NCBI GenBank assembly: GCA_965178085.1
Contig: CBCXTS010000005.1
Location: 27,811-91,810 of the forward strand
Origin: Alphaproteobacteria bacterium
GTDB taxonomy: Bacteria; Pseudomonadota; Alphaproteobacteria; CBCXTS01
Direction of reading: 5' to 3'
Length of the DNA stretch: 64,000 nt
How positions within the stretch are numbered: the first letter of the stretch is position 1; each line of letters begins with the position of its first letter. The translations under genes and the position numbers were made by a program. Of this stretch, positions 12,001-37,794 are shown piece after piece. The notes under the pieces are model-generated. The model did not search any database and was not told the origin of the DNA. It saw only the letters and a program-made list of their open reading frames with translations.

Positions 12001-15000
12001 GAGGTCAAGGCCGTAACCGATAAGGTAAATTCTTGGTCCAAATGGGCAAGCGGCGTTACCTGCAAACCTGATAATTGACTGGTTTCTAATGTCCATACAC
12101 CAACCGATGAAACCGTACCCGCTGATAGCTTAGCCCCCGTTGGTACATTAGATATATAGACAACCAATGTCTCAGAGCCATCACTATCAATGGCAATGGC
12201 TGATATAGCAAGGTTAATTGCTTGATCTTCAAAACCACTAGCGCTTACAACACCAAATGAGGCGGTATCGGCTATGCCCGATACCGTAACTGCAAGATCA
12301 CTGGTGGTAAATACCGATGATGTACCATCAGCTTCAGAGGTTAAGGCCGTAACCGATAGGGTAAACTCTTGGTCCAAATGGGCGCTTGGCGTTACCTGCA
12401 AACCTGATAATTGACTGGTTTCTAATGTCCAAACACCAACCGATGAAACCGTACCTGCTGATAGCTTAGCCCCCGTTGGCACACCCGATATATAGACAAC
12501 CAATGTCTCGCTGCCATCACTATCAATGGCAATGGCTGATATAGCAAGGTTAATCCCTTGATCTTCAAAACCACTAGCGCTTACAACACCAAACGAGGCC
12601 GTGTCAGCTATACCTGATACCGCAACTGCAAGATCGCTGGTGGTAAATATCGATGATGTACCATCACTCTCAGAGGTCAAGGCCGTAACCGATAGGGTAA
12701 ATTCTTGGTCCAAATGGGCGCTTGGTGTTACCTGCAAGCTTGATAATTGACTTGTTTGCAACGTCCATATACCCGCCGATGAAACCGTACCTGCTGACAA
12801 GCTAGCACCCGTTGGTACATTGGATATATAAATAACCAATGTCTCGCTGCCATCACTATCAATGGCAATGGCTGATATAGCAAGGTTAATTGCTTGATCC
12901 TCAAAACCGCTAGCGCTTACCACACCAAACGAGGCCGTATCGGCTATGCCCGATAGCGTAACTGCAATATTGCCCGTTGCAACGCTTGATGATATGCCAT
13001 CACTCTCAGAGGTTAAGGCCGTAACCGATAGGGTAAATTCTCGGTCTGAATGGGCGCTTGGTGTCACCTGCAAACCCGATAATTGATTAGATTGGATTGT
13101 CCATATACCAGCAGATGAAACCGTACCGGTTGATAGCTTAGCACCCGTTGGAAGATTGCCAATATAAAGAACGAGTGTTTCGCTGCCATCTGTATCTAAT
13201 ATCGCAGATGATATCACAATATTGATGCCTTGATCTTCAAAGCCACTGGCCTGAATTTGTTGCAAGGCTGGCGTGTCAGCTATGCCCGATACCGTCACTG
13301 CAAGGTCACTGGTGGTAAATATCGATGATGTACCATCAGCTTCAGAGGTCAATGCCGTAACCGATAGGGTGAATTCTTGGTCTGAATGGGCGCTTGGCGT
13401 TACCTGCAAGCCTGATAATTGACTGGTTTGGATTGTCCATATACCAGCAGATGAAACCGTACCTGCTGACAAGCTAGCACCCGTTGGCACACCCGATATA
13501 TAGACAACCAATGTCTCAGAGCCATCGCTATCAATGGCAATGGCTGATATAGCAAGGTTAATTGCTTGATCTTCAAAACCACTAGCACTTACCACACCAA
13601 ACGAGGCCGTGTCGGCTATGCCCGATAGCGTAACTGCAAGATCACTGGTGGTAAATATCGATGATGTACCATCACTCTCAGAGGTCAAGGCCGTAACCGA
13701 TAAGGTGAAATCATTGTCTGTGTGTGCAAGCGACGTTACTTGCAGACCTGATAATTGACTAGATTGGATTGTCCATATACCAACCGATGAAACCGTACCT
13801 GCTGACAAGCTAGCACCCGTTGGAAGATTGCCAATATAAAGAACGAGTGTTTCGCTGCCGTCTGTATCCAATATTGCAGATGATATCACAATATTGATGC
13901 CTTGATCTTCAAAACCACTGGCCTGAATTTGTTGCAAGGCTGGCGTGTCAGCTATGCCCGATACCGTCACTGCAAGGTCACTGGTGGTAAATATCGATGA
14001 TGTACCATCACTCTCAGAGGTCAAGGCCGTAACCGATAGGGTAAATTCTCGGTCTGAATGGGCGCTTGGTGTTACCTGCAAGCCTGATAATTGACTGGTT
14101 TGTAACGTCCAGACACCTAATGATGAAATCGTACCTGCTGACAAGCTAGCACCCGTTGGTACACCCGATATATAGACAACCAATGTCTCACTGCCATCAC
14201 TATCTATGAGCGAACTAGAAATTGTAAGCCCAATCGCTTGGTCTTCAATAGTAGATGCAGACATTGTCTCTAACGCTGCTGTGTCAGCTATACCCGATAC
14301 CGTAACTGCAAGATCACTTGTGGTAAAGATCGATGATGTGCCATCATCTTCAGAGGTTAAGGCCGTAACCGATAACGTGAATTCAGCGTCTGAATGCACG
14401 CTTGGCGTCACTTGCAAACCCGATAATTGACTAGATTGTATTGTCCAAACACCACCCGATGAAACCGTACCTGCTGACAAGCTAGCACCCGTTGGTACAC
14501 CCGATATATAGACAACCAATGTCTCACTACCATCGCTATCAATGGCAACAGCTGATATCGCAAGGTTAATTGCTTGATCCTCAAAACCACTAGCGCTTAC
14601 CACGCCAAACGAGGCCGTATCGGCTATACCCGATAGCGTAACTGCAATATTGCCCGTTGCAATGCTTGATGATGTACCGTCATCTTCAGAGGTTAAGGCC
14701 GTAACCGACAAGGTAAATTCATTGTCTGAATGCACAGGTGGCGTCACCTGCAAACCTGATAATTGATTAGATTGGATTGTCCAAACACCAGCCGATGATG
14801 CCGTACCCGCTGATAGCTTAGCTCCCGTTGGAAGATTGCCAATATAAAGAACGAGTGTTTCGCTGCCATCTGTATCTAATATCGCAGATGATATCACAAT
14901 ATTGATGCCTTGATCTTCAAAACCACTGGCTTGAATTTGTTGCAAAGCAGGAGTGTCAGCAACACCTGATACCGTAACTGCAAGATCACTGGTCGTAAAT

Positions 15001-18000
15001 ATCGATGATGTACCATCACTCTCAGAGGTTAAGGCCGTAACCGATAAAGTAAATTCTTGGTCTGAATGGGCGCTTGGCGTTACCTGCAAGCCCGATAATT
15101 GACTGGTTTGGATTGTCCATATACCAGCAGATGAAACCGTACCGGCTGACAAGCTAGCACCCGTTGGCACATTAGATATATAGACAACCAATGTCTCGGT
15201 GCCATCACTATCAATGGCAATGGCTGATATAGCAAGATTAATTGCTTGATCTTCAAAACCACTAGCGCTTACGACACCAAATGAGGCGGTATCGGCTATA
15301 CCCGATACCGTAACTGCAAGATCACTGGTCGTAAATACCGATGATGTACCATCACTCTCAGAGGTCAAGGCCGTAACTGACAAAGTAAATTCATTGTCTG
15401 AATGGGCGCTTGGCGTTACTTGCAAGCCTGATAATTGACTGGTTTGTAACGTCCAAACACCAGATGATGAGACCGTACCTGCTGATAGCTTTGCTCCCGT
15501 TGGCACATTTGATATATAAACAACCAACGTTTCACTACCATCAGTATCCATCACCGAGGTAGAAATTGTAAGCCCAATCGCTTGGTCTTCAACGGTCGAT
15601 GCAGACATTGTCCCCAACGCTGCCGTATCGGCTATACCAGATACCGTAACTGCAAGATCACTGGTCGTAAATACCGATGATGTACCATCACTCTCAGAGG
15701 TCAGTGCCGTAACCGACAATGTAAACTCATTGTCTGAATGGACAGGTGGCGTAATTTGCAAACCTGATAATTGATTGGTTTGTAACGTCCAAATACCAGA
15801 TGATGAAACCGTACCGGCTGACAAGCTAGCCCCCGTTGGCGTGCCAGATATATAAATCACTAATGTTTCACTGCCATCACTATCTATGAGCGAACTAGAA
15901 ATTGTAAGCCCAATCGCTTGGTCTTCAATAGTAGATGCAGACATTGTCCCCAACGCTGCTGTATCAGCTATACCCGATACCGTAACCGCAAGATCACTTG
16001 TGGTAAAGATCGATGATGTGCCATCACTCTCAGAGGTTAAGGCCGTAACCGATAACGTGAATTCAGCGTCTGAATGCACGCTTGGCGTCACTTGCAAGCT
16101 CGATAATTGATTGGATTGGATTGTCCAAACACCTGATGATGAAACCGTACCGGCTGATAATGTTGCCCCCGTTGGCACACCCGATATATAGACAACCAAT
16201 GTCTCACTACCATCGCTATCAATGGCAATGGCTGATATAGCAAGGTTAATTGCTTGATCTTCAAAACCACTAGCGCTTACAACACCAAATGAGGCGGTAT
16301 CGGCTATACCCGATACCGTAACTGCAAGGTCACTGGTAGTAAATACCGATGATGTACCATCACTCTCAGAGGTTAATGCCGTAATCGATAATGTAAATTC
16401 ATTATCCAGATGCGCAGGTGGTGTAACCTGCAAGCCTGATAATTGACTGGTTTGTAACGTCCAAACACCACCCGATGAAACCGTGCCTGCTGAAAGTGTT
16501 GCACCCGTTGGAACGTTTGATATGTAAACAACCAATGTTTCACTACCATCGGTATCTATCACCGAGGTAGAAATTACAAGATTGACCCCTTGGTCTTCAA
16601 ACCCACTAGCACTTACAACATCCAAAGAAGCGGTATCGGCTGTACCTGATACTGTAACTGCCAATGCAGATGTAGTAAATATCGATGATGAGCCGTCATC
16701 TTCAGAAGTTAGCGACGTAACCGACAAGGTAAATTCTTGATCTGAATGCACGCTTGGCGTAATTTGTAAACCTGATAATTGGCTGGTTTGTAATGTCCAG
16801 ACACCAGATGATGAAACCGTACCCGCTGATAGCTTAGCACCCGTTGGTACGCTTGATATATAAACAACCAACGTTTCACTACCATCGGTATCTATAACCG
16901 AGGTAGAAATTGCAAGATTGATCCCTTGATCTTCAAAGCCACTGGCGCTGATCACATCTAACGATGCCGTATCAGCTACGCCAGATATCTTAACTTGAAG
17001 ATCTGCAACTGCAAAAACAGACGATGTGCCATCATCTTCGGAGGTAACAACTGTAACTGATAAAGTAAGATCAAGATGTGAATGCGCAGGAGGTATTGCT
17101 GTTAAACCCGATAACTGGCTAGTTTGCAATGTCCACACACCAGCCGACGATACTGTACCCGCTGAAAGTGATATCCCTGTACGCAAATTGCTAACGTACA
17201 ATACGATCGTTTCACTACCATCTGTATCTAAAATAGCAGGAGATATATCAAGATGAAATGTTTGATCTTCCAAACCGCTCAAACTTAATCGTTGCAATGC
17301 CGCGGTATCTGCTATGCCTGACACCGTAACTGCAAGATCACTTGTGGTAAATATCGATGATGTGCCGTCATCTTCAGATGTAAGTGCCGTAACCGATAAC
17401 GTGAAGTCCTGGTCTGAATGGGCGCTTGGCGTTACCTGCAAGCCCGATAATTGACTGGGTTGTAATGTCCAAACACCAGCCGATGAAACCGTACCTGTCG
17501 AAAGTACTACACCCGTTGGCACATTAGATATATAGACAACCAATGTCTCAGAGCCGTCGCTGTCAATAGCAATGGCTGATATAGCAAGATCAATTGCTTG
17601 ATCTTCAAAGCCACTGGCACTCATCACACCAAACGAAGCCGTATCGGCTATACCCGATACCGTAATTGCAAGGTCACTGGTCGTAAATACCGATGATGTA
17701 CCATCACTCTCAGAGGTCAAGGCCGTAACCGACAAGGTAAACTCATTGTCTGAATGGACAGGTGGCGTTATCTGCAAACCTGATAATTGGCTGGTTTGCA
17801 ATGTCCAAATACCAGATGATGAGACCGTACCTGCCGATAGTTTGGCTCCCGTTGGAGCACCTGATATATAAACAACCAACGTCTCACTACCATCACTATC
17901 AACAAATGAGGTAGAAATTGTAATACCTATCGCTTGATCTTCAACGGTTGATGTATCAATTGTTTGCAGTGGCGCCGTATCAGCTATACCCGATACCGTA

Positions 18001-21000
18001 ACTGCAAGATCACTAGTAATGAAAATTGATGATGTACCATCACTCTCAGAGGTCAAGGCCGTAACCGATAGGGTAAATTCTTGATCTGAATGCAATGGTG
18101 GCGTTACCTGCAAACCCGATAATTGACTTGTCTGCAATGTCCAAACACCTAATGATGAAACCGTACCGGCTGATAATCTTGCCCCCGTTGGGGTACCCGA
18201 TATATAAACAACCAACGTCTCACTACCATCACTATCAACAAATGAGGTAGAAATTGTAATTCCTACTGTTTGATCTTCTAGCGTAGAGGCATCAACTGTT
18301 CCCAAGCGCGCTGTATCAGCAATAGCCGATACCGTAACTGCAATATTGCCTGTCGTGAAACTCGATGACGTGCCATCATCTTCAGAAGTGATAGCCGTAA
18401 CCGATAACGTGAATTCAGCGTCTGAATGTACAGGTGGAGTTACTTGCAAACCCGATAATTGATTGGATTGGATTGTCCAAACACCAGTTGATGATGCCGT
18501 ACCTGCTGATAGCTTTGCTCCCGTTGGAAGATCGCCAATGTAAAGGACAAGTGTTTCGCTACCATCTGTATCTAATATTGCAGATGATATCACAATATTG
18601 ATGCCTTGATCTTCAAAACCACTGGCTGCTATTTGTTGCAAGGCAGGAGTATCGGCTATACCCGATACCGTAACTGCAATATTGCCCGTTGTGATGTTTG
18701 ATGATGTGCCGTCATCTTCAGAGGTTAATGCCGTAACCGACAAGGTAAATTCATTGTCTGAATGCACGGGTGGCGTTACTTGTAAACCTGATAATTGATT
18801 GGATTGGATTGTCCAAACACCAGCCGATGATGCCGTACCTGCTGATAGCTTAGCTCCCGTTGGAAGATTGCCAATATAAAGAACGAGTGTTTCGCTGCCA
18901 TCTGTATCTAATATTGCAGATGATATCACAATATTGATGCCTTGATCTTCAAAACCACTGGCTTGAATTTGTTGCAAAGCGGGAGTGTCGGCTATGCCCG
19001 ATACCGTCACTGCAAGATCACTGGTCGTAAATACCGATGATGTACCATCACTCTCAGAGGTCAAGGCCGTAACCGACAAAGTAAATTCATTGTCTGAATG
19101 GACAGGTGGCGTTACCTGCAAACCCGATAATTGACTTGTTTGGATTGTCCATATACCAACCGATGAAACCGTACCTGCTGATAGCTTAGCTCCCGTTGGC
19201 ACTCCCGATATATAAATAACCAATGTCTCACTACCATCAGTATCTATCACCGAAGTAGAAATTGTAAGCCCTATCGCTTGATCTTCAACGGTAGATGCAG
19301 ACATTGTCTCCAACGCTGCCGTATCAGCTATACCCGATATCGTAACTGCAAGATCACTGGTCGTAAATACCGATGATGTACCATCACTCTCAGAGGTCAA
19401 GGCCGTAACCGACAAGGTAAACTCATTGTCTGAGTGCGCAGGTGGCGTTATCTGCAAGCCTGATAATTGGCTGGTTTGCAATGTCCAAATACCAGATGAT
19501 GAGACCGTACCTGCCGATAGTTTGGCTCCCGTTGGAGCACCTGATATATAAACAACCAACGTCTCACTACCATCACTATCAACAAATGAGGTAGAAATTG
19601 TAATACCTATCACTTGATCTTCAACGATCGATGTATCAATTGTTTGCAGTGGTACCGTGTCAGCTATACCCGATACCGTAACTGCAAGATCACTTGTGGT
19701 AAAGATCGATGATGTGCCATCACTCTCAGAGGTCAAGGCCGTAACCGATAACGTGAAATCTTCATCTGAATGCATAAAGGGCGTAATTTGCAAACCTGAT
19801 AATTGATTGGTTTGCAATGTCCAAACACCTGATGATGAAACCGTACCGGCTGATAATCTTGCCCCCGTTGGGGTACCCGATATATAAACAACCAACGTCT
19901 CACTACCATCACTATCAACAAATGAGGTAGAAATTGTAATTCCTACTGTTTGATCTTCTAGCGTAGAGGCATCAACTGTTCCCAAGCGCGCTGTATCAGC
20001 AATAGCCGATACTGTGACCGCAAGATCACTGGTCGTAAATACCGATGATGTACCATCATCTTCAGAGGTGAGTGCCGTAACCGATAACGTGAATTCAGCG
20101 TCTGAATGGACAGGTGGCGTTACTTGCAAACCCGATAATTGATTGGATTGGATTGTCCAAACACCAGCCGATGATGCCGTACCCGCTGATAGCTTGGCAC
20201 CCGTTGGAACGTTTGATATATAAACAACCAACGTCTCACTGCCATCGGTATCGACTAGCGATGATGAAATAATAAGAGGAATGCTTGTATCTTCAAGCCC
20301 GCTAGCTATAAGACCATCTAATTTAGCTGTATCGGCTATACCCGATACCGTAACTGCAATATTGCCCGTTGTGATGTTTGATGATGTGCCGTCATCTTCA
20401 GAGGTTAATGCCGTAACCGACAAGGTAAATTCATTGTCTGAATGCACGGGTGGCGTTACTTGTAAACCTGATAATTGATTGGATTGGATTGTCCAAACAC
20501 CAGCCGATGATGCCGTACCTGCTGATAGCTTAGCTCCCGTTGGAAGATTGCCAATATAAAGAACGAGTGTTTCGCTGCCATCTGTATCTAATATTGCAGA
20601 TGATATCACAATATTGATGCCTTGATCTTCAAAACCACTGGCTTGAATTTGTTGCAAAGCAGGAGTGTCGGCTATGCCCGATACCGTCACTGCAAGATCA
20701 CTGGTCGTAAATACCGATGATGTACCATCACTCTCAGAGGTCAAGGCCGTAACCGACAAAGTAAATTCATTGTCTGAATGGACAGGTGGGGTTACCTGCA
20801 AGCCCGATAATTGACTTGTTTGCAATGTCCATATACCAACCGATGAAACCGTACCTGCTGATAGCTTAGCTCCCGTTGGCACACCCGATATATAAATAAC
20901 CAATGTCTCACTACCATCAGTATCTATCACCGAAGTAGAAATTGTAAGCCCTATCGCTTGATCTTCAACGGTAGATGCAGACATTGTCTCCAACGCTGCC

Positions 21001-24000
21001 GTATCAGCTATACCCGATATCGTAACTGCAAGATCACTGGTCGTAAATACCGATGATGTACCATCACTCTCAGAGGTCAAGGCCGTAACCGACAATGTAA
21101 ATTCATTGTCTGAGTGCGCAGGTGGCGTTATCTGCAAGCCTGATAATTGGCTGGTTTGCAATGTCCAAATACCAGATGATGAGACCGTACCTGCCGATAG
21201 TTTGGCTCCCGTTGGAGCACCTGATATATAAACAACCAACGTCTCACTACCATCACTATCAACAAATGAGGTAGAAATTGTAATACCTATCACTTGATCT
21301 TCAACGATCGATGTATCAATTGTTTGCAGTGGTACCGTATCAGCTATACCCGATACCGTAACTGCAAGATCACTAGTAATGAAAATTGATGATGTACCAT
21401 CACTCTCAGAGGTCAAGGCCGTAACCGATAACGTGAAATCTTGATCCGAGTGTAGCCACGGTATAACTTGCAAGCCCGATAATTGACTTGTCTGCAATGT
21501 CCAAATACCAGATGATGAGACCGTACCGGCTGATAATCTTACCCCCGTTGGGGTACCCGATATATAAACAACCAACGTCTCACTACCATCACTATCAACA
21601 AATGAGGTAGAAATTGTAATTCCTACTGTTTGATCTTCTAACGTAGAGGCATCAACTGTTCCCAAGCGCGCTGTATCAGCAATAGCCGATACTGTGACCG
21701 CAAGATCAGAACTTGTTACAACCGAAGAAGTGCCATCATCTTCAGAGGTGAGTGCCGTAACCGATAACGTGAATTCAGCGTCTAAATGGACAGGTGGCGT
21801 TACTTGCAAACCCGATAATTGATTGGATTGGATTGTCCAAACACCAGCCGATGAAACCGTACCCGCTGATAGCTTGGCACCCGTTGGAACGTTTGATATA
21901 TAAACAACCAACGTCTCACTGCCATCGGTATCGACTAGCGATGATGAAATAATAAGAGGAATGCCTGTATCTTCAAGCCCGCTAGCTATAAGACCATCTA
22001 ATTTAGCTGTATCAGCAACACCCGATATCCTAACCATAAGTTCTGCCGTAGAAAAAACCGACGATGTACCATCATCTTCAGAGGTAAGCGCCGTAACCGA
22101 TAAGGTAAAGTCTCGATCCGAGTGCAACGGTGGTACGATATATAAACCTGATAATTGACTGGTTTGTAATGTCCAAACACCTGAAGAAGCTACTGTACCC
22201 GATGAAAGCATTACCCCTGAAGGTAAGTTGGTAAGATATACGATAATCGTTTCACTACCATCTGTATCCAAAATTGCAGGCGATATATCAAGTACAACTC
22301 GTTGATCTTCAAGCCCACTTAAATTCAATCGCTGCAGCGCTGGAGTGTCGGCTATACCTGATACCGTCACTGCAAGATCACTGGTAGTAAATACCGATGA
22401 TGTACCATCACTCTCAGAGGTCAAAGCCGTAACCGACAAAGTAAATTCATTGTCTGAGTGCGCAGGTGGCGTTACCTGCAAGCCCGATAATTGACTTGTT
22501 TGCAATGTCCATATACCAACCGATGAAACCGTACCTGCTGATAGCTTTGCTCCCGTTGGCACACCCGATATATAAATAACCAATGTCTCACTACCATCAG
22601 TATCTATCACCGAAGTAGAAATTGTAAGCCCTATCGCTTGGTCTTCAACGGTCGATGCAGACATTGTCTCCAACGCTGCCGTATCGGCTATACCCGATAT
22701 CGTAACTGCAAGATCACTGGTCGTAAATACCGATGATGTACCATCACTCTCAGAGGTCAAGGCCGTAACCGACAAGGTAAACTCATTGTCTGAGTGCGCA
22801 GGTGGCGTTATCTGCAAACCTGATAATTGGCTGGTTTGCAATGTCCAAATACCAGATGATGAGACCGTACCTGCCGATAGTTTGGCTCCCGTTGGAGCAC
22901 CTGATATATAAACAACCAACGTCTCACTACCATCACTATCAACAAATGAGGTAGAAATTGTAATACCTATCGCTTGATCTTCAACGATCGATATATCAAT
23001 TGTTTGCAGTGGTACCGTGTCGGCTATACCCGATACCGTAACTGCAAGATCACTAGTAATGAAAACTGATGATGTACCGTCATCTTCAGAGGTCAAGGCC
23101 GTAACCGATAACGTGAAATCTTGATCCGAGTGTAGCCACGGTATAACTTGCAAGCCCGATAATTGACTTGTCTGCAATGTCCAAACACCTGATGATGAAA
23201 CCGTACCCGTTGATAGCTTAGCACCCGTTGGGGTACCCGATATATAAACAACCAACGTCTCACTACCATCACTATCAACAAATGAGGTAGAAATTGTAAT
23301 CCCTACTGTTTGATCTTCTAGCGTAGAGGCATCAACTGTTCCCAAGCGCGCTGTATCAGCAATAGCCGATACCGTAACTGCAATATTGCCTGTCGTGAAA
23401 CTCGATGACGTGCCATCATCTTCAGAAGTGATAGCCGTAACCGATAACGTGAATTCAGCGTCTGAATGTACAGGTGGCGTTACTTGCAAACCCGATAATT
23501 GATTGGATTGGATTGTCCAAACACCAGCCGATGATGCCGTACCTGCTGATAGCTTAGCTCCCGTTGGAAGATCGCCAATATAAAGGACAAGTGTTTCGCT
23601 GCCATCTGTATCTAATATTGCAGATGATATCACAATATTGATGCCTTGATCTTCAAAACCACTGGCTGCTATTTGTTGCAAGGCAGGAGTATCGGCTATA
23701 CCCGATACCGTAACTGCAATATTGCCCGTTGTGATGTTTGATGATGTGCCGTCATCTTCAGAGGTTAATGCCGTAACCGACAAGGTAAATTCATTGTCTG
23801 AATGCACGGGTGGCGTTACTTGTAAACCTGATAATTGATTGGATTGGATTGTCCAAACACCAGCCGATGATGCCGTACCTGCTGATAGCTTAGCTCCCGT
23901 TGGAAGATTGCCAATATAAAGAACGAGTGTTTCGCTGCCATCTGTATCTAATATTGCAGATGATATCACAATATTGATGCCTTGATCTTCAAAACCACTG

Positions 24001-27000
24001 GCTTGAATTTGTTGCAAAGCGGGAGTGTCGGCTATGCCCGATACCGTCACTGCAAGATCACTGGTCGTAAATACCGATGATGTACCATCACTCTCAGAGG
24101 TCAAGGCCGTAACCGACAAAGTAAATTCATTGTCTGAATGGGCGCTTGGCGTTACCTGCAAGCCCGATAATTGACTTGTTTGCAATGTCCATATACCAAC
24201 CGATGAAACCGTACCTGCTGATAGCTTTGCTCCCGTTGGCACACCCGATATATAAATAACCAATGTCTCACTACCATCAGTATCTATCACCGAAGTAGAA
24301 ATTGTAAGCCCTATCGCTTGGTCTTCAACGGTCGATGCAGACATTGTCTCCAACGCTGCCGTATCGGCTATACCCGATATCGTAACTGCAAGATCACTGG
24401 TCGTAAATACCGATGATGTACCATCACTCTCAGAGGTCAAGGCCGTAACCGACAAGGTAAACTCATTGTCTGAGTGCGCAGGTGGCGTTATCTGCAAACC
24501 TGATAATTGGCTGGTTTGCAATGTCCAAATACCAGATGATGAGACCGTACCTGCCGATAGTTTGGCTCCCGTTGGAGCACCTGATATATAAACAACCAAC
24601 GTCTCACTACCATCACTATCAACAAATGAGGTAGAAATTGTAATACCTATCGCTTGATCTTCAACGATCGATATATCAATTGTTTGCAGTGGCGCCGTAT
24701 CAGCTATACCCGATACCGTAACTGCAAGATCACTAGTAATGAAAATTGATGATGTACCGTCATCTTCAGAGGTCAAGGCCGTAACCGATAACGTGAAATC
24801 TTGATCCGAGTGTAGCGACGGTATAACTTGCAAGCCCGATAATTGACTTGTCTGCAATGTCCAAATACCAGATGATGAAACCGTACCGGCTGATAATCTT
24901 GCCCCCGTTGGGGTACCCGATATATAAACAACCAACGTCTCACTACCATCACTATCAACAAATGAGGTAGAAATTGTAATTCCTACTGTTTGATCTTCTA
25001 ACGTAGAGGCATCAACTGTTCCCAAGCGCGCTGTATCAGCAATAGCCGATACTGTGACCGCAAGATCAGAACTTGTTACAACCGAAGAAGTGCCATCATC
25101 TTCAGAGGTGAGTGCCGTAACCGATAACGTGAATTCAGCGTCTGAATGGACAGGTGGCGTTACTTGCAAACCCGATAATTGATTGGATTGGATTGTCCAA
25201 ACACCAGCCGATGAAACCGTACCCGCTGATAGCTTGGCACCCGTTGGAACGTTTGATATATAAACAACCAACGTCTCACTGCCATCGGTATCGACTAGCG
25301 ATGATGAAATAATAAGAGGAATGCCTGTATCTTCAAGCCCGCTAGCTATAAGACCATCTAATTTAGCTGTATCAGCAACACCCGATATCCTAACCATAAG
25401 TTCTGCCGTAGAAAAAACCGACGATGTACCATCATCTTCAGAGGTAAGCGCCGTAATCGATAAGGTAAAGTCTCGATCCGAGTGCAACGGTGGTACGATA
25501 TGCAAACCTGATAATTGACTGGCTTGTAATGTCCAAACACCTGAAGAAGCTATTGTACCCGATGAAAGCATTACCCCTGAAGGTAAGTTGGTAAGATATA
25601 CGATAAGCGTTTCACTACCATCTGTATCCAAAATTGCAGGCGATATATCAAGTACAACTCGTTGATCTTCAAGCCCACTTAAATTCAATCGCTGCAGCGC
25701 TGGAGTGTCGGCTATACCTGATACCGTCACTGCAAGATCACTGGTAGTAAATACCGATGATGTACCATCACTCTCAGAGGTCAAAGCCGTAACCGACAAA
25801 GTAAATTCATTGTCTGAGTGCGCAGGTGGCGTTACCTGCAAGCCCGATAATTGACTTGTTTGCAATGTCCATATACCAACCGATGAAACCGTACCTGCTG
25901 ATAGCTTAGCTCCCGTTGGCACACCCGATATATAAATAACCAATGTCTCACTACCATCAGTATCTATCACCGAAGTAGAAATTGTAAGCCCTATCGCTTG
26001 GTCTTCAACGGTCGATGCAGACATTGTCTCCAACGCTGCCGTATCGGCTATACCCGATATCGTAACTGCAAGATCACTGGTCGTAAATACCGATGATGTA
26101 CCATCACTCTCAGAGGTCAAGGCCGTAACCGACAAGGTAAACTCATTGTCTGAGTGCGCAGGTGGCGTTATCTGCAAACCTGATAATTGGCTGGTTTGCA
26201 ATGTCCAAATACCAGATGATGAGACCGTACCTGCTGATAATTTGGCTCCCGTTGGAGCACCTGATATATAAACAACCAACGTCTCACTACCATCACTATC
26301 AACAAATGAGGTAGAAATTGTAATACCTATCGCTTGATCTTCAACGATCGATATATCAATTGTTTGCAGTGGCGCCGTATCAGCTATACCCGATACCGTA
26401 ACTGCAAGATCACTAGTAATGAAAATTGATGATGTACCGTCATCTTCAGAGGTCAAGGCCGTAACCGATAACGTGAAATCTTGATCCGAGTGTAGCGACG
26501 GTATAACTTGCAAGCCCGATAATTGACTTGTCTGCAATGTCCAAATACCAGATGATGAAACCGTACCGGCTGATAATCTTACCCCCGTTGGGGTACCCGA
26601 TATATAAACAACCAACGTCTCACTACCATCACTATCAACAAATGAGGTAGAAATTGTAATTCCTACTGTTTGATCTTCTAACGTAGAGGCATCAACTGTT
26701 CCCAAGCGCGCTGTATCAGCAATAGCCGATACTGTGACCGCAAGATCAGAACTTGTTACAACCGAAGAAGTGCCATCATCTTCAGAGGTGAGTGCCGTAA
26801 CCGATAACGTGAATTCAGCGTCTGAATGGACAGGTGGCGTTACTTGCAAACCCGATAATTGATTGGATTGGATTGTCCAAACACCTGATGATGAAACCGT
26901 ACCCGCTGATAGCTTGGCACCCGTTGGAACGTTTGATATATAAACAACCAACGTCTCACTGCCATCGGTATCGACTAGCGATGATGAAATAATAAGAGGA

Positions 27001-30000
27001 ATGCCTGTATCTTCAAGCCCGCTAGCTATAAGACCATCTAATTTAGCTGTATCAGCAACACCCGATATCCTAACCATAAGTTCTGCCGTAGAAAAAACCG
27101 ACGATGTACCATCATCTTCAGAGGTAAGCGCCGTAACCGATAAGGTAAAGTCTCGATCCGAGTGCAACGGTGGTACGATATATAAACCTGATAATTGACT
27201 GGTTTGTAATGTCCAAACACCTGAAGAAGCTACTGTACCCGATGAAAGCATTACCCCTGAAGGTAAGTTGGTAAGATATACGATAATCGTTTCACTACCA
27301 TCTGTATCCAAAATTGCAGGCGATATATCAAGTACAACTCGTTGATCTTCAAGCCCACTTAAATTCAATCGCTGCAGCGCTGCAGTGTCGGCTATACCTG
27401 ATACCGTCACTGCAAGATCACTGGTCGTAAATACCGATGATGTACCATCACTCTCAGAGGTCAAAGCCGTAACCGACAAAGTAAATTCATTGTCTGAGTG
27501 CGCAGGTGGCGTTACCTGCAAGCCCGATAATTGACTTGTTTGCAATGTCCATATACCAACCGATGAAACCGTACCTGCTGATAGCTTAGCTCCCGTTGGC
27601 ACACCCGATATATAAATAACCAATGTCTCACTACCATCAGTATCTATCACCGAAGTAGAAATTGTAAGCCCTATCGCTTGGTCTTCAACGGTCGATGCAG
27701 ACATTGTCTCCAACGCTGCCGTATCGGCTATACCCGATACCGTAACTGTCAATGCACTGGTGGTGAAAATCGATGATGTACCATCACTCTCAGAGGTCAA
27801 GGCCGTAACCGACAATGTAAACTCATCGTCTGAATGGACAGGTGGCGTAATTTGCAAACCTGATAATTGATTGGTTTGTAACGTCCAAATACCAGATGAT
27901 GAGACCGTACCTGCTGATAGTTTAGCTCCCGTTGGAGCACCTGATATATAAACAACTAACGTCTCACTACCATCACTATCAACAAATGAAGTAGAAATTG
28001 TAATACCTATCGCTTGATCTTCAATAGTAGATGCAGACATTGTCCCCAACGCTGCTGTATCGGCTATACCCGATACCCTAACTGCAAGATCACTGGTAGT
28101 AAATATCGATGATGTACCGTCATCTTCAGAGGTCAAAGCCGTAACCGATAGGGTAAATTCTTGATCTGAATGCAATGGTGGCGTTACCTGCAAACCCGAT
28201 AATTGATTGGATTGGATTGTCCAAACACCTGATGATGAAACCGTACCCGCTGATAGCTTGGCACCCGTTGGAACGTTTGATATATAAACAACCAACGTCT
28301 CACTGCCATCGGTATCAATGCGTAAAGCAGAAATAGAAAGCCCTATCGCTTGATCTTCAAACCCGCTAGCACTGATCACTCCAAACGAGGCCGTGTCAGC
28401 AATAGCCGATACTGTGACCGCAAGATCAGCGCTTGTTACAACCGAAGACGTGCCATCATCTTCTGAAGAAATAGCTGTAATTGAAAGCGTAAATTCTTGG
28501 TCTGAATGGGCAAGCGGAGTGATGGTTAACCCTGATAGTTGGTTAGTTTGTATTGTCCATGCACCTGATGATGAAACCGTACCCGCTGATAGCTTAGCAC
28601 CTGTTGGTACATTACCTACATATAGCACTAGCGTTTCACTACCATCTGTATCCAATATTGCAGATGATATTGTAATAGGAATGCCTGTATCTTCAAAACC
28701 ACTAGCGGCTAGTCGCTGCAATGCTGGAGTATCAGCTACACCCGATACCGTAACCGACAGCTCAGTTGTGGTGAAAACCGACGATGTACCGTCATCTTCA
28801 GAGGTGATAGTCGTAACCGATAAGGTAAAGTCTCGATCTGAATGCAGAGGCGGTATGATTTGTAAACCAGCTAATTGACTTGGCTGTAATGTCCAAACAC
28901 CAGTCGATGACAACGTTCCTGATGTCAATGTAGCGCCTGTGATCACACCTGCGATATAAACCACAATCGTCTCGCTACCATCTGTATCAATTAAAGGCGA
29001 TGATATCCCAAGATTGATCGCTTGATCTTCAAAACCACTAGCACTGCTCACCCCAAGCGAGGCCGTATCGGCTATACCCGATACCGTCACTGCAATATCA
29101 CTGGTGGTGAAAACCGATGACGTGCCATCAGCTTCAGAGATGAACGCCGTAACCGACAAAGTAAATTCATTGTCCGAATGGACAGGTGGCGTAATTTGCA
29201 AGCCTGATAATTGACTGGTTTGCAGCGTCCAAATACCAGATGATGAGATCGTACCTGCTGATAGCTTTGCTCCCGTTGGAGCACCTGATATATAAACAAC
29301 CAATGTCTCACTACCATCGCTATCAACAAAGGAGGTAGAAATTGTAAGACCTATCGCTTGATCTTCAACGGTAGATGCGTCGATTGTTTGCAGTGGCGCC
29401 GTATCGGCTATGCCCGATACCGTAACTGCAAGATCACTGGTGGTGAAAATCGATGATGTACCGTCATCTTCAGAGGTCAAGGCCGTAACCGATAACGTAA
29501 AATCTTCATCTGAATGTATAAAGGGCGTAATTTGCAAACCTGATAATTGATTGGTTTGTAACGTCCAAATACCAGATGATGAGACCGTACCTGCTGATAG
29601 TTTGGCTCCCGTTGGAGCACCTGATATATAAACAACCAACGTCTCACTACCATCACTATCAACAAATGAAGTAGAAATTGTAATACCTATCGCTTGATCT
29701 TCAACGGTCGATGTATCAGTTGTTTGCAGTGGCGCCGTATCGGCTATACCCGATACCCTAACTGCAAGATCACTGGTAGTAAATATCGATGATGTACCGT
29801 CATCTTCAGAGGTCAAGGCCGTAACCGATAGGGTAAATTCTTGATCTGAATGCAATGGTGGCGTTACCTGCAAACCCGATAATTGATTGGATTGGATTGT
29901 CCAAACACCTGATGATGAAACCGTACCCGCTGATAGCTTGGCACCCGTTGGAACGTTTGATATATAAACAACCAACGTCTCACTGCCATCGGTATCAATG

Positions 30001-33000
30001 CGTAAAGCAGAAATAGAAAGCCCTATCGCTTGATCTTCAAACCCGCTAGCACTGATCACTCCAAACGAGGCCGTGTCAGCAATAGCCGATACTGTGACCG
30101 CAAGATCAGCGCTTGTTACAACCGAAGACGTGCCATCATCTTCTGAAGAAATAGCTGTAATTGAAAGCGTAAATTCTTGGTCTGAATGGGCAAGCGGAGT
30201 GATGGTTAACCCTGATAGTTGGTTAGTTTGTATTGTCCATGCACCTGATGATGAAACCGTACCCGCTGATAGCTTAGCACCTGTTGGTACATTACCTACA
30301 TATAGCACTAGCGTTTCACTACCATCTGTATCCAATATTGCAGATGATATTGTAATAGGAATGCCTGTATCTTCAAAACCACTAGCGGCTAGTCGCTGCA
30401 ATGCTGGAGTATCAGCTACACCCGATACCGTAACCGACAGCTCAGTTGTGGTGAAAACCGACGATGTACCGTCATCTTCAGAGGTGATAGTCGTAACCGA
30501 TAAGGTAAAGTCTCGATCTGAATGCAGAGGCGGTATGATTTGTAAACCAGCTAATTGACTTGGCTGTAATGTCCAAACACCAGTCGATGACAACGTTCCT
30601 GATGTCAATGTAGCGCCTGTGATCACACCTGCGATATAAACCACAATCGTCTCGCTACCATCTGTATCAATTAAAGGCGATGATATCCCAAGATTGATCG
30701 CTTGATCTTCAAAACCACTAGCACTGCTCACCCCAAGCGAGGCCGTATCGGCTATACCCGATACCGTCACTGCAATATCACTGGTGGTGAAAACCGATGA
30801 CGTGCCATCAGCTTCAGAGATGAACGCCGTAACCGACAAAGTAAATTCATTGTCCGAATGGACAAGTGGCGTAATTTGCAAGCCTGATAATTGACTGGTT
30901 TGCAGCGTCCAAATACCAGATGATGAGATCGTACCTGCTGATAGCTTTGCTCCCGTTGGAGCACCTGATATATAAACAACCAATGTCTCACTACCATCGC
31001 TATCAACAAAGGAGGTAGAAATTGTAAGACCTATCGCTTGATCTTCAACGGTAGATGCGTCGATTGTTTGCAGTGGCGCCGTATCGGCTATGCCCGATAC
31101 CGTAACTGCAAGATCACTGGTGGTGAAAATCGATGATGTACCGTCATCTTCAGAGGTCAAGGCCGTAACCGATAACGTAAAATCTTCATCTGAATGTATA
31201 AAGGGCGTAATTTGCAAACCTGATAATTGATTGGTTTGTAACGTCCAAATACCAGATGATGAGACCGTACCTGCTGATAGTTTGGCTCCCGTTGGAGCAC
31301 CTGATATATAAACAACCAACGTCTCACTACCATCACTATCAACAAATGAAGTAGAAATTGTAATACCTATCGCTTGATCTTCAACGGTCGATGTATCAGT
31401 TGTTTGCAGTGGCGCCGTATCGGCTATACCCGATACCCTAACTGCAAGATCACTGGTAGTAAATATCGATGATGTACCGTCATCTTCAGAGGTCAAGGCC
31501 GTAACCGATAATGTAAAATCTTGATCTGAATGCAATGGTGGCGTTACCTGCAAACCCGATAATTGATTGGATTGGATTGTCCAAACACCTGATGATGAAA
31601 CCGTACCCGCTGATAGCTTGGCACCCGTTGGAACGTTTGATATATAAACAACCAACGTCTCACTGCCATCGGTATCAATGCGTAAAGCAGAAATAGAAAG
31701 CCCTATCGCTTGATCTTCAAACCCGCTAGCACTGATCACTCCAAACGAGGCCGTGTCAGCAATAGCCGATACTGTGACCGCAAGATCAGCGCTTGTTACA
31801 ACCGAAGACGTGCCATCATCTTCTGAAGAAATAGCTGTAATTGAAAGCGTAAATTCTTGGTCTGAATGGGCAAGCGGAGTGATGGTTAACCCTGATAATT
31901 GGTTAGTTTGTATTGTCCATACACCTGATGATGAAACCGTACCCGCTGATAGCTTAGCACCTGTTGGTATATTGTCTACATATAGCACTAGCGTTTCACT
32001 ACCATCTGTATCCAATATTGCAGATGATATTGTAATAGGAATGCCTGTATCTTCAAAACCACTAGCGGCTAGTCGCTGCAATGCTGGAGTATCAGCTACA
32101 CCCGATACCGTAACCGACAGCTCAGTTGTGGTGAAAACCGACGATGTACCGTCATCTTCAGAGGTGATAGTCGTAACCGATAAGGTAAAGTCTCGATCTG
32201 AATGCAGAGGCGGTATGATTTGTAAACCAGCTAATTGACTTGGCTGTAATGTCCAAACACCAGTCGATGACAACGTTCCTGATGTCAATGTAGCGCCTGT
32301 GATCACACCTGTGATATAAACCACAATCGTCTCGCTACCATCTGTATCAATTAAAGGCGATGATATCCCAAGATTGATCGCTTGATCTTCAAAACCACTA
32401 GCACTGCTCACCCCAAACGATGCCGTATCGGCTATACCCGATACCGTCACTGCAAGATTACTAGTCGTGAAAATCGATGACGTGCCATCAGCTTCAGAGG
32501 TAAGTGCTGTAATCGATAATGTGAAATCTTGATCCGAATGAGCAGATGGTGTTACTTGCAAACCCGACAATTGACTGGTTTGCAGCGTCCATTGGCCAGA
32601 TGATGAGATCGTACCTGCTGATAGCTTAGCACCCGTTGGCACGCCCGATATATAAACCACTAACGTCTCACTACCATCGCTATCAACAAAGAAGGTAGAA
32701 ATTGTAATACCTATCGCTTGATCTTCAACGGTAGATGCGTCGATTGTTTGCAGTGAGGCCGTATCGGCTATACCCGATACCCTAACTGCAAGATCACTGG
32801 TAGTAAATATCGACGATGCACCGTCATTTTCAGAGGTAAGCGCCGTAACCGACAATGTAAATTCATTGTCTGAGTGCGCAGGTGGCGTAATTTGCAAACC
32901 TGATAATTGATTGGTTTGTAACGTCCAAATACCAGATGATGAGACCGTACCTGCTGATAGTTTGGCTCCCGTTGGAGCACCTGATATATAAACAACCAAT

Positions 33001-36000
33001 GTCTCAGAACCGTCAGTATCAATGAGCGTAGTCGATATAATAAGATCAACGCTTTTATCTTCTACTGTCGAGGTATTTTGCACCCGCAGAACAGGAACAT
33101 CTGCCTCACCATACAATGTAACAACAAGATCTACTCTGCTTGCTAAAGAAGAAACACCGTCTCTTTCGGATGTTGTTGTGATAACAGTAAGGGTAAAATC
33201 TTCATTCGAATGAACAGGTGGAATCAAGTTTAATCCAGCAAGTTCACCCTTGCTTAAAGTCCATAATCCACCCGAAACTGTACCAGCAGTCAAACTAGCA
33301 CGCGGTGGTACGTTACTAATATAAATAATTGCAGTCTCACTGCCGTCTGTATCAACAATAGTTGCAACAATATCAAGAGAAACAACGCTATCTTCTAAAC
33401 CACTGATGTTTGAAAAGCTAAGCTGTGCTGTATCTGCTACCCCAACAACTTTAACGCTAATATCAGCCGTCGTAAAAACCGAAGAATTTGTATCATTTTC
33501 TGATGTAATAGCAGTAACCGATAAGGTAAAGTCTTGATCCGAATGAACAGGCGGTATTACTGCTAACCCTGAAACCAGTCCACCAGAAACAGTCCACACA
33601 GAAGAATGTAAAACCCCTGCAGAAAGCTTTGCACCTGCTGGTACATTTGAAACATAAACCACTAATGTTTCCGATGCATCCGTATCAACCAGAACAACTG
33701 AAAGACCAAGCGTAATTATAGTATCTTCCAAACCACACGTATCTTGCACTACAAGACTTACCGTATCTGCAACTCCTGTTAAATTAATGGTTATCATATT
33801 GGTTGTGATGACGCTACCAATTGCTTGATCTTCTGAGGTAACAGCTGTAACAGAAAGTGTAAAATCATATGCAGAATGTGCTGGTGCTTTCAGTTCTAGC
33901 CCTGAAAGTTCTGCCAATGAAACCGTCCATACATTATTGGCTAACGTTCCTGAAGACAAAAAAGAGTCTGTTGGAACGTTTGCAATGTAAAGTATTAACG
34001 TTTCAGAACCATCGGTGTCTTGCAATCCCAAAAAGGAGCTTAATATAATAGCATGATCTTCTGTTCCAGGGATCGCAGAAGTTAAAATATCACCAGCATC
34101 AATAACTGGCGCAATGGTAATATTTGATTGCGTTTTGCTAAGAACTTCATGCTCTCCATCTTTGATTACAACCAACGCTGTAATAGCAAAATTTCCTGAA
34201 TAATGCGCTGGAGGTGTGACAATTAAATCATTGCCAAATATCCTATATTCATTCAAATTTAACATCCAACGACCATTGGATTGTAGCGTTCCATGGTTCA
34301 AACGGGCTTGAGTTGGAAGAATAAACTCTACCTGGTGCAAACTATCGCCTGAACCTATAATGCCTACAGATAATTTTAATGAAAACCCTACATCTTCTGT
34401 GAGCATAGGATCCACAGTAATTGAAAGTGTTGGGATAGTAGCTAAAGAAGTAGCAACTGGAAGATTCTTGGGAGCGCCCAAAACAATAGCATCTTGATCA
34501 AGTATTGAAATTTGTAAATTAAAATTACCTTGATCAATTGGAGATATCAGATTGAGATTATCAAGCTCTGTCGTTGACAGTGTATATCTGCCATCTGGTT
34601 GACGTGTGCCACTACTTAAGCTGCTTAGTGCTGGAACACCGCCAATGACAACGCTAGTGGCAGGAACATCTACCAATGCAACAGAGCGAAATAATGCAAG
34701 AGGAAATAAAGGAGCGGTTATTGGCTGAGAATCAGGCGCTGTTGGCTGTAACAGAACAGCTCCTGAAATTTCAATTTGTTCAATTTCTCCAATCGTAACA
34801 CCTAGGCTTGTAAATTCGTATCTACCTTGTGCATTCAAACGAGAAAGGACAGATGAATTAGTAACGCTTCCTTGTTGCAATTGCTGTTGTAATATCTGTA
34901 AATCAAAAACATCAGAGCGGACATTTAAATTGCTAGCCAAAAGATCATTAGGACTAATCTTAACAACCAAACGGTCAATTCCTGCACCACCTGAAGCTAG
35001 GTCCTGCTGAGAAGCAATAGTTCCCGTACCTTGACTGGCAACAAATAACGTGTCATCTCCAAACCCACCATAAAGCTTATCAGCACCGCCTTCACCATCA
35101 AGAGCATCATTGCCAAACTCTCCAAATATAATATCATCCCCATCGCCACCTGATATTTGATCACCACTACTTGCAAGCAACTCCACTGACACCGTTGAAT
35201 GCAAAACCTGCGGATTAGTGTCTCCAACAACACTCGTAACCGACAGTGTGAACTCAGGTGTGCCAGATGCAATACCCGTGATTCTTAAGCTACTGAGGTT
35301 TGCAATAATTTTATCTGTATAAGGAAATGAAAACTGGCCCGTGCCCTCAGGCGTTGGGTAAATAGCAAATCCATCTTGATCAAAAAGTTCAAGCGATTGC
35401 CCTGGTTGCAAACCGCTAATAATCATTCGATCAAGCGGACCATCGGGGATAGGAGACCCTTGATATTTCAATGGAACCAATGCAACAAAAATAGAAGAAC
35501 CCATTACCACTTGTGGCGGATTGCCATCAATAAAGCTTGCTCCATAATCACCAAACAAAACCTGATTAGCTGCTTCTCCTTGTATACGATCGCTACCTCC
35601 TCCTCCACTAAAGGTAGCGGCATTCGTCACAGAAGATACTGTGTTAATATTTTGCAAATCTACAACACTAGTGTTTGCGTTTAAAATTAATGAAAACCCA
35701 TTATCAATGGGTTGAGCCGTAGGAACTGGCGGCAAGGTAATCTCATCGCTAGACCCTGAAAAAGGATCAAAACTTGATGGAACTGAGGGCAAGCTTACAA
35801 TAGGCAGTAATGGCAAAGACGGCCCAATAGGAGTAACAGAACTGCTAGAGGTATCACTGGTTGGCAAAACATCATCAACCGATGATATTGTATCGCTTAA
35901 ACTCACAATATCGCTTTGCGAAGACGATAAAACATTATTAGAAACATTCGCTGTTTGGATGATGTTGAGAGCATTTCTTTGTTCTACTTCATCAACAACA

Positions 36001-37076: not shown

Positions 37077-37289
37077 TGATGTTGGTTTGTTTTAAGCTTG
37101 TATAGGTGAACATTTGTTGTTCAATTTTACTGTGCCTTGTTACGTTTTATTTTGGCTAGCCATTTGATGGCGTCCCAGCGTCCATCATGTACTAATACAA
37201 AACTGACTATATAGTATCGCGTATCAATAACATTTTTATATAAGCATAACAAGCTAGTTCAAGCATTTTTGTAAATATAAAATAAAATT

Positions 37290-37787: not shown

Positions 37788-37794
37788 AAAATGG

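What the first reader, a model, noticed from the sequence alone, without database searches (positions are those of the whole stretch)
18200..28050. Higher-order repeat family B: mosaic of near-identical 1680-bp blocks
Identical 60-nt lines recur at 1680, 3360 or 5040-bp offsets (for example 21961/25321/27001, 19733/23093/24773, 18601/23641, 20281/21961). The order of sub-blocks differs between copies. This pattern suggests recent and repeated recombination or gene conversion within the array, which could drive length (phase/size) variation of the adhesin between strains or within a population.
Basis: partly seen in the sequence, partly recalled or inferred. Interest (0 to 1): 0.55.

Follow-up and report, generated by a model that had tools for sequence, protein, structure and literature searches.

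The report
Five-unit repeat blocks in giant adhesin
The flagged region is real: six in-frame 1,680-bp blocks, each encoding five Ig-like domains, lie inside a gene of more than 37 kb for a giant adhesin-like surface protein and have exchanged segments by recombination; this is a well-developed but ordinary example of how such genes evolve.

Summary
Window 3..37076 (- strand) is one open frame of more than 12,358 codons, cut by the window start. It holds about 90 tandem 336-bp (112-aa) units.

Units 17-46 (17655-27734) form six copies of a five-unit, 1,680-bp higher-order repeat (HOR): IJKLM IJKLM INOLM IJKLM INKPM INOQM. Every exact repeat of 300 nt or more lies at an offset of 5, 10 or 15 units. 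Copies 3, 5 and 6 carry an alternative 450-770-nt tract that is 68-76% identical to the standard one.

Recombination between copies is supported:
- Groupings of copies conflict along the block (Rm >= 7; permutation p < 0.0005).
- Synonymous divergence is 0.07 within unit types and 0.52 between types.
- The closest homologue, P0014, also has a period-5 HOR, yet its units are only about 73% identical to these, against about 96% within the window.

Strain-to-strain length variation could not be tested, because no close relative's locus was retrievable. Units are multiples of 3 bp, so size variation is expected, not on/off phase variation. This is a new member of a known kind.

The parts
3..37076 (-). 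Giant open reading frame. It starts at ATG 37076 and is cut by the window start, so the C-terminus is missing. It spans more than 12,358 codons without a stop.
   Evidence: Six-frame scan: one open stretch at 3..37091 of 12,363 codons. First ATG at 37076. pN/pS is 0.21-0.35, consistent with a real coding sequence.
17655..27734 (-). HOR domain 'B', the finding itself: six copies of a 1,680-bp, five-unit block. Copy 1 is 26055-27734, copy 2 24375-26054, copy 3 22695-24374, copy 4 21015-22694, copy 5 19335-21014 and copy 6 17655-19334.
   Evidence: Unit typing gives IJKLM IJKLM INOLM IJKLM INKPM INOQM. Same-type units are mostly 95-100% identical per position; the diverging position-4 units (L, P, Q) are 89-99.7%. 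Exact runs lie only at offsets of 5, 10 or 15 units.
23373..24141 (-). Alternative 'N-O' tract in copy 3. It covers HOR nt 233-1001 and replaces the J-K sequence.
   Evidence: Site pattern 001011 followed by 001001. It is 68% (position 2) and 75-76% (position 3) identical to the J-K version, and 98-100% identical to the same tract in copy 6.
18333..19101 (-). The same alternative 'N-O' tract in copy 6.
   Evidence: There is a 540-nt exact run, 18562-19101 = 23602-24141.
20334..20781 (-). Shorter alternative 'N' tract in copy 5, covering HOR nt 233-680. The sequence returns to the K type at nt 681-686, which makes a hybrid block (INKPM).
   Evidence: Pattern 001011 ends at HOR nt 680 and 001001 starts at nt 686. 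Unit 39 is a mosaic.
28071..32438 (-). HOR domain 'C': (CDEFG)x2 + CDE. It has the same five-unit period and is 98-100% identical between copies.
   Evidence: Exact runs of 1,047 and 645 nt at offset 1680.
27735..28070 (-). Junction unit 16, a mosaic of the type-F unit (domain C) and a unit-52-like sequence (domain A).
   Evidence: Window painting.
5547..17654 (-). HOR domain 'A' (units 47-82). It is older and less regular, but still period 5 (cdefg, chijk, lmcde, lmcde). It includes 114-aa variant units and N-type units shared with domain B.
   Evidence: The N type (unit 28) is 94.6% identical in DNA to unit 55.
32439..34109 (-). Five diverged leading units (3 x 111 aa and 2 x 112 aa) ahead of the homogenised arrays.
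   Evidence: Anchor spacing. They are 43-82% identical to the reference unit in alignment A1.
35043..35150 (-). RTX Ca2+-binding nonapeptide block ([36 protein letters not shown]) in the N-terminal region.
   Evidence: PF00353 at 35 bits against a cut-off of 23. The block is conserved in homologue P0120.
3..5546 (-). Distal region in which units alternate with three inserted domains of about 190-210 aa (3633-4205, 2082-2672, 852-1475). Each insert sits after the first strand of a unit, the 'split-domain' layout of a ligand-binding region.
   Evidence: Sequence reading and coordinates. The same modules occur in P0014 at 76-79% identity. The AF2 model of insert 1 is poor, with pLDDT 47.
37290..40659 (-). 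Upstream housekeeping genes ileS (37795-40659) and lspA (37290-37787). They show that the gene sits in the chromosome core.
   Evidence: Pfam matches to tRNA-synt_1 and Peptidase_A8.

Best explanation
The region is the middle part of the extender (stalk) of a giant, probably type-I-secreted, RTX-adhesin-like surface protein. The stalk is built from about 90 Ig-like beta-sandwich domains of 112 aa.

The DNA is organised as a higher-order repeat. Five diverged 336-bp units form a 1,680-bp block, and the blocks are nearly identical to one another.

Shown by the sequence: long tracts of exact identity occur only in the five-unit register. Synonymous sites are homogenised within unit types. Copies are mosaics that share 450-770-nt alternative tracts, and short patches are shared out of register.

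Inferred: homologous recombination between misaligned blocks (unequal crossing-over between sister chromosomes, or replication slippage) duplicates and deletes whole 1,680-bp blocks. Non-reciprocal gene conversion spreads variants between copies. All units are whole numbers of codons, so every such event keeps the frame. The expected phenotype is a change in stalk length by about five domains at a time, not an on/off switch.

The same five-unit period in the nearest homologue, with independently homogenised sequence, indicates that the process has run in register in both lineages since they split.
For: - Array and period.
- Exact runs of at least 300 nt occur only at offsets of 5, 10 or 15 units.
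- Unit typing and per-position identity.
- Mosaic statistics: Rm >= 7 and PHI-like p < 0.0005.
- Tract limits.
- Out-of-register patches: unit 40 nt 192-264 matches type F at 46-47/48, and unit 45 nt 216-264 matches type E at 48/48.
- pS is 0.068 within types and 0.52 between types; pN/pS is 0.21 within types.
- Homologue P0014 has a period-5 HOR (abcde abcdf ...). Window units match each other at a mean of 96% but P0014 units at 73%, while the non-array modules are 76-79% identical.
- Family context: 4,175 representative proteins match the unit profile. Many are giant, alphaproteobacterial, and carry RTX repeats or T1SS names.
- Published precedent for patterned extenders and between-strain extender-number variation: bioRxiv 10.1101/2025.09.30.679566.
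Against: - No second strain, read set or orthologous DNA locus was obtained, so copy-number change is inferred, not observed.
- P0014 could be a paralogue from a related genome and not the orthologue.
- The C-terminus is outside the window, so the T1SS signal and terminal beta-roll cannot be seen. The C-terminus of P0014 gives only sub-threshold RTX matches.
- No T1SS, lapD or lapG genes lie in the 27 kb upstream.
- No Pfam or NCBIfam repeat model recognises the unit.
- Adhesion itself is untested.
Confidence: 0.75

Rival explanations
1. Assembly artefact. The order and number of near-identical 1,680-bp blocks were mis-resolved by the assembler, through collapse, expansion or chimeric joins, so the 'mosaic' is not biological.
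For: Exact repeats of 300-1,047 nt exceed short-read length. Relatives from short-read MAGs are shattered into 'partial' pieces on contigs of 2-6 kb (AAF403_* proteins). The literature warns that such genes are often misassembled.
Against: The frame stays open for 37 kb with no stop or frameshift. Each block carries private variants as well as shared tracts. Exact identity in domain B never exceeds 546 nt, so long reads would resolve it. An independent homologue shows the same five-unit organisation.
Confidence: 0.07
2. The five-domain block is an old structural supermodule kept similar by selection on the protein, for example a five-domain structural period of the stalk, and not by recent DNA exchange.
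For: Period 5 is shared by the window protein and P0014 despite about 25% protein divergence. The units are under purifying selection, with pN/pS 0.21-0.35.
Against: Selection on the protein cannot keep synonymous sites identical. pS within types is 0.068 against 0.52 between types, and there are exact DNA runs of 300-1,047 nt. Block-to-block groupings conflict along the block. Other family members have period 1, period 3 or no repeat pattern.
Confidence: 0.08
3. Programmed cassette switching. The alternative J-K and N-O tracts are variant cassettes exchanged to vary the surface of the stalk, as in antigenic variation.
For: Two sharply different versions (68-76% identical) occupy the same HOR positions in different copies. 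N-type units recur in domain A.
Against: The window has no recombinase, reverse transcriptase or silent-cassette locus. All versions are expressed together in one polypeptide, so switching a tract would change only about 1-2% of the protein. Tract ends differ between copies, as expected for ordinary conversion.
Confidence: 0.05

Closest known systems
RTX adhesins anchored by type I secretion (LapA of Pseudomonas fluorescens, MpIBP of Marinomonas primoryensis, FrhA of Vibrio cholerae, AhLap of Aeromonas hydrophila)
   Same: Both are giant single polypeptides with a long stalk of tandem Ig-like extender domains of about 100-112 aa, whose DNA is nearly identical in the interior and diverged at the ends. 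Both have RTX nonapeptide repeats and a distal region where extra domains bud from split Ig-like domains. The unit here is homologous to the AhLap split domain (9CSE).
   Different: The RTX block seen here lies near the N-terminus. No recognisable retention module, LapG site, lapD/lapG or T1SS genes were found in the window. The C-terminus is not available. The host is a poorly sampled alphaproteobacterium-like lineage (IleRS at most 52% identical). Size is above 12,358 aa, against 1,500-15,000 aa for the family.
Patterned extender arrays described for RTX adhesins from long-read genomes (bioRxiv 10.1101/2025.09.30.679566)
   Same: That work reports runs of near-identical extenders, pairs of dissimilar extenders repeated in series, adjacent blocks and mixed patterns. 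It also reports isoforms that differ between strains in extender number.
   Different: Here the repeated block is five units long. It forms three successive domains of different ages and shows internal alternative tracts. That paper, as read here, mentions no five-unit period.
Higher-order repeats of eukaryotic alpha-satellite DNA (comparison from general knowledge)
   Same: Diverged monomers are grouped in a multimer that is itself tandemly repeated at 95-100% identity. Hybrid and variant multimers occur. Both are explained by unequal crossing-over and conversion.
   Different: This array is protein-coding and under purifying selection. It is in frame and lies in a bacterial chromosome. It holds only 3-7 block copies per domain.
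Alphaproteobacterial 'tandem-95 repeat', 'T1SS-143' and 'beta strand repeat-containing' giant proteins
   Same: The unit profile finds these proteins with the same DxDGSE...GVPxGAxLSAGT...W.L...L.GL.ITPP...F.L.V.A motif. Many carry RTX repeats and T1SS target domains.
   Different: The curated models themselves (NCBIfam; Pfam Cadherin_4, Cadherin_5 and Big_9) do not score the window units. Most of those proteins have all-divergent units with no HOR.
DDxP modular RTX proteins (PMC7730722)
   Same: Both are large T1SS-type proteins built from several module types that are reiterated.
   Different: The defining DDxP motif at module ends is absent, with no DD.P anywhere in the 12,363 residues. The proposed mechanism there is endonuclease-mediated insertion, for which nothing is seen here.

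Membership tests
RTX adhesin (LapA/MpIBP/FrhA/AhLap type) | Long tandem array of Ig-like beta-sandwich extender domains | tested here: met
RTX adhesin (LapA/MpIBP/FrhA/AhLap type) | Homology of a domain to an experimentally characterised RTX adhesin | tested here: met
RTX adhesin (LapA/MpIBP/FrhA/AhLap type) | RTX Ca2+-binding nonapeptide repeats | tested here: met
   PF00353 at 35 bits (cut-off 23) at 35046-35150. The position is atypical, being N-terminal.
RTX adhesin (LapA/MpIBP/FrhA/AhLap type) | C-terminal beta-roll and type I secretion signal | not testable with these tools
   The C-terminus lies beyond the window start. The C-terminus of homologue P0014 gives only sub-threshold RTX matches: NCBIfam E 4e-6 to 2e-3, far below the cut-offs, and Pfam E 1.3.
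RTX adhesin (LapA/MpIBP/FrhA/AhLap type) | N-terminal retention module with LapG cleavage site | not tested
   No Pfam or NCBIfam family matches the first 640 residues. The N-terminal 1,000 aa are collinear with P0120 at 38% identity.
RTX adhesin (LapA/MpIBP/FrhA/AhLap type) | Neighbouring T1SS (ABC, MFP, TolC-like) or lapD/lapG genes | tested here: not met
   All 20 large ORFs scanned at 37.3-62.4 kb are housekeeping or unassigned; none is a T1SS, lapD or lapG gene. The side downstream of the gene is outside the window.
RTX adhesin (LapA/MpIBP/FrhA/AhLap type) | Distal ligand-binding region with domains budding from split Ig-like domains | tested here: inconclusive
   Three inserts of 191-208 aa sit after the first strand of a unit. 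The AF2 model has pLDDT 47 and is unusable. No Pfam or NCBIfam match.
Higher-order repeat (HOR) array | Monomers within a block are diverged, blocks are nearly identical, and the period is a constant whole number of monomers | tested here: met
   Adjacent units are 64-89% identical in DNA. Units five apart are mostly 95-100% identical, falling to 89-93% at the diverging position 4 and 68-79% where the alternative tract replaces the standard one. Exact runs occur only at offsets of 5, 10 or 15 units.
NCBIfam tandem-95, T1SS-143 and VCBS repeats; Pfam Cadherin_4, Cadherin_5 and Big_9 | Score above the model's threshold | tested here: not met
   None of these models is listed for the array, even at E <= 10 in Pfam and E <= 0.1 in NCBIfam. 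They are recorded on distant homologues only.
DDxP modular proteins | DDxP motif at the end of each module | tested here: not met
   No DD.P motif occurs in the 12,363 residues.

The most novel reading that the evidence does not exclude
The five-domain period may itself be a selected property, not just a frozen accident. It is kept in two lineages whose unit sequences have been independently homogenised. This could mean the stalk has a five-domain structural or mechanical super-period, so only in-register 1,680-bp gains and losses are tolerated. The slightly raised GC3 of the arrays would then be a footprint of GC-biased conversion in a bacterial coding repeat.
Probability: 0.12. Interest if true: 0.55.

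Novelty: new member of a known kind. Interest (0 to 1): 0.3.

Why it matters
The finding gives a clean, fully resolved example of a higher-order repeat inside a bacterial protein-coding gene, with a measurable record of unequal exchange and conversion. It extends the RTX-adhesin-type architecture to a poorly sampled alphaproteobacterium-like lineage and to a protein of more than 12,358 residues.

There is also a practical point. The 112-aa unit family has 4,175 representative proteins but is missed by current Pfam and NCBIfam models. Genes of this kind are shattered in short-read MAGs, so their sizes and copy numbers in databases are unreliable. None of this changes current understanding of how repeat-rich adhesin genes evolve.

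Tried and rejected
- Exact-protein look-ups for LspA, citrate synthase and P0014 found nothing on record.
- The genome-contig scan with the N-terminal 1,000 aa found no relative.
- The genome-contig scan with IleRS gave a best match of 52% identity. That locus (L001) has no giant gene or tandem repeat downstream of ileS, so there is no synteny.
- The metagenome-contig scan with the alignment of the N-terminus and P0120 returned only an RTX-motif match.
- The search for homologous proteins with the unit profile returned only 13 short fragments because of its word index. With the N-terminus it returned only RTX-motif hits.
- The AF2 model of the inserted domain was too poor (pLDDT 47) for a fold search.
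- Pfam and NCBIfam gave nothing for the units or inserts.
- No tRNA genes are present.
- The DDxP-protein idea was rejected because the motif is absent.
- The + strand 161-aa ORFs inside the array were rejected as antisense by-products recurring every 1,680 bp.
Full report
**1. The observation**

A six-frame scan shows one open stretch on the minus strand from 37091 down to base 3. It spans 12,363 codons without a stop and runs off the window start. The first ATG is at 37076.

Tandem Repeats Finder reports a single array at 5656-33024 with a period of 336 bp and 81 copies. Across the array, self-identity is 0.75 at an offset of 336. It rises to 0.795 at 1680, 0.734 at 3360 and 0.711 at 5040. 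Other multiples of 336 give 0.63-0.72 and out-of-phase offsets about 0.24.

- 21961/25321/27001 and 18601/23641 are 60/60.
- 23093/24773 is 59/60.
- 20281/21961 is 56/60.
- 19733 matches its two partners at only 49/60.

All 18 exact in-register runs of at least 300 nt lie at offsets of exactly 5, 10 or 15 units.

**2. Anatomy of the array**

I anchored units on the invariant DxDGSE motif and clustered the 336-bp units by DNA identity. The array resolves into three successive domains, all with a five-unit period.

- Units 3-15 (28071-32438) read (CDEFG)x2 + CDE. Copies are 98-100% identical, with exact runs of up to 1,047 nt.
They read IJKLM IJKLM INOLM IJKLM INKPM INOQM.
- Units 47-82 (5547-17654) are older and less regular but still show five-unit blocks (cdefg, chijk, lmcde, lmcde).

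Within family B, same-type units in different copies are mostly 95-100% identical, while the position-4 units L, P and Q have drifted to 89-93%. Neighbouring units within a block are only 64-89% identical. This is the definition of a higher-order repeat.

The 'different order of sub-blocks' is a replacement, not a permutation. In copies 3, 5 and 6 an alternative tract starts at HOR nt 233. It runs to nt 680 in copy 5, and to nt 1001 in copies 3 and 6. It is 68-76% identical to the standard version. The N-type unit also occurs in domain A, at 94.6% DNA identity to unit 55.

**3. Evidence for exchange between copies**

The six copies group differently along the block:
- At position 1 the groups are {1,2,4}, {3} and {5,6}.
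- At position 2 they are {1,2,4} against {3,5,6}.
- At position 3 they are {1,2,4,5} against {3,6}.
- At position 5 they are {1,2,3}, {4,5} and {6}.

Of 21,528 pairs of informative sites, 2,705 fail the four-gamete test. The Hudson-Kaplan minimum is 7 events, and a PHI-like permutation test gives p < 0.0005.

Short patches match units from other HOR positions and other domains. Unit 40 nt 192-264 matches type F, and unit 45 nt 216-264 matches type E at 48/48.

Synonymous divergence is 0.068 within unit types and 0.52 between types. pN/pS is 0.21 and 0.35 respectively. The similarity of blocks is therefore due to recent common DNA ancestry and not to selection on the protein. The frame is nevertheless under purifying selection, which argues for a real gene.

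**4. A related protein**

An exhaustive profile search with 39 units finds 4,175 representative proteins at E <= 1e-3. The best is P0014 (7,609 aa; NCBI; on a 955-kb contig). It is a C-terminal fragment of a close homologue.

- Its non-array modules are 76-79% identical to those in the window.
- Its 22-unit array is also a period-5 HOR (abcde abcdf abcdf abcd...).
- Window units find their best partner inside the window at a mean of 96% protein identity, but in P0014 at only 73%, with a maximum of 81%.

This is the signature of concerted evolution, or of independent expansion, in each lineage. Its weight is limited by not knowing whether P0014 is the orthologue.

Of 16 other giant family members surveyed, 13 could be typed by this anchor method. 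Two have monomeric, (near-)identical arrays. One has a short period-3 pattern and one a single duplicated pair. The other nine have all-divergent units. The five-unit HOR is therefore specific to this small clade.

**5. What the protein is**

No Pfam or NCBIfam model scores the unit. AlphaFold2, run with the units as its alignment, gives a confident all-beta sandwich with pLDDT 89.

9CSE is the Ig-like split domain plus RTX-like domain of AhLap, a characterised 5,047-residue RTX adhesin of Aeromonas hydrophila (PMC12077191).

Other features of the window protein:
- It has a bona fide RTX nonapeptide block at 35046-35150.
- Its N-terminal 1,000 residues are collinear with P0120, a fragment from a related MAG, at 38% identity.
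- Its distal part has three 191-208-aa inserts placed after the first strand of a unit, the 'split domain' layout of RTX-adhesin ligand-binding regions. The fold of these inserts could not be resolved (pLDDT 47).

Distant homologues are mostly alphaproteobacterial. They are annotated as tandem-95, T1SS-143, RTX-like or T1SS-target proteins.

Several defining features remain unconfirmed:
- The C-terminus, and with it the T1SS signal, is outside the window.
- No T1SS, lapD or lapG genes lie in the 27 kb of housekeeping genes upstream.
- A retention module was not tested.

I therefore call the protein RTX-adhesin-like, with membership only partly established.

**6. Mechanism**

The steps above are shown by the sequence. 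What follows is inferred.

Direct repeats with 300-1,000 nt of exact identity spaced 1.7-5 kb apart are good substrates for homologous recombination and replication slippage. This is general knowledge and was not tested here. Misaligned exchange would add or remove whole 1,680-bp blocks, and conversion would spread tracts between copies.

All units are whole codons (333, 336 or 342 bp). The outcome is therefore an in-frame change of stalk length by about five domains, not phase variation.

Between-strain variation in extender number is documented for other RTX adhesins (bioRxiv 10.1101/2025.09.30.679566). It could not be checked for this gene, because no close relative's locus was retrievable.

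**7. Novelty and score**

Near-identical extender arrays are already described, and so are simple repeated pairs or blocks of extenders and strain-to-strain number variation. A five-unit HOR with three age classes and internal alternative tracts, in a protein of more than 12,358 residues from a poorly sampled lineage (IleRS at most 52% identical to any species representative found), is a nice new member of that kind. It is not a new kind. Interest is 0.3.

Noticed in passing
window 28393-28878, 30073-30558, 31753-32238 (+): Three identical-length 161-aa GTG ORFs recur every 1,680 bp on the strand opposite the giant gene. They are antisense by-products of the nearly identical HOR domain C, not genes.
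   Followed up: partly
window 5547-32438 compared with 34077-37076 and 37795-62401: The array is 44-47% GC, against 36-41% in the flanks. Most of the difference is at codon position 2 (0.52 against 0.37), which reflects amino-acid composition. GC3 is also higher in the arrays (0.33-0.36) than in the non-repeated N-terminus of the same gene (0.27) and in housekeeping genes (0.25-0.31). This could be a footprint of GC-biased conversion.
   Followed up: partly
window 35043-35150 (-): The only above-threshold RTX nonapeptide block lies about 640 residues from the N-terminus, ahead of the extender array. It is conserved in homologue P0120. In characterised RTX adhesins the beta-rolls are distal or C-terminal.
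   Followed up: partly
window 3633-4205, 2082-2672, 852-1475 (-): Three mutually diverged inserts of 191-208 aa (21-33% identity in an alignment that also holds two P0101 inserts) interrupt units after their first strand. They are probable ligand-binding domains of unknown fold, with no Pfam, NCBIfam or PDB sequence match. The AF2 model has pLDDT 47.
   Followed up: partly
window 37795-40659 (ileS) and the whole right flank: IleRS is at most 52% identical to any GTDB species representative found by the pattern scan, and the best hits are uncultured Alphaproteobacteria MAGs. Exact LspA and GltA proteins are not on record. The source organism appears poorly represented in public collections.
   Followed up: partly
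proteins P0101, P0120, P0176, P0186 (MAG locus tags AAF403_*): The nearest named relative's copy of this gene is split into several 'partial' proteins on contigs of 2-6 kb. This is a concrete case of short-read assemblies shattering such genes.
   Followed up: no
window 7899-8234 and 9585-9920 (-): Two units in domain A carry a 2-aa insertion, making them 114 aa. The pair recurs five units apart, so an indel variant has been propagated by block duplication.
   Followed up: no
window 59327-59836 (-): A 169-aa ORF between tatC and a HAD hydrolase gene has no Pfam family at E <= 1e-5.
   Followed up: no
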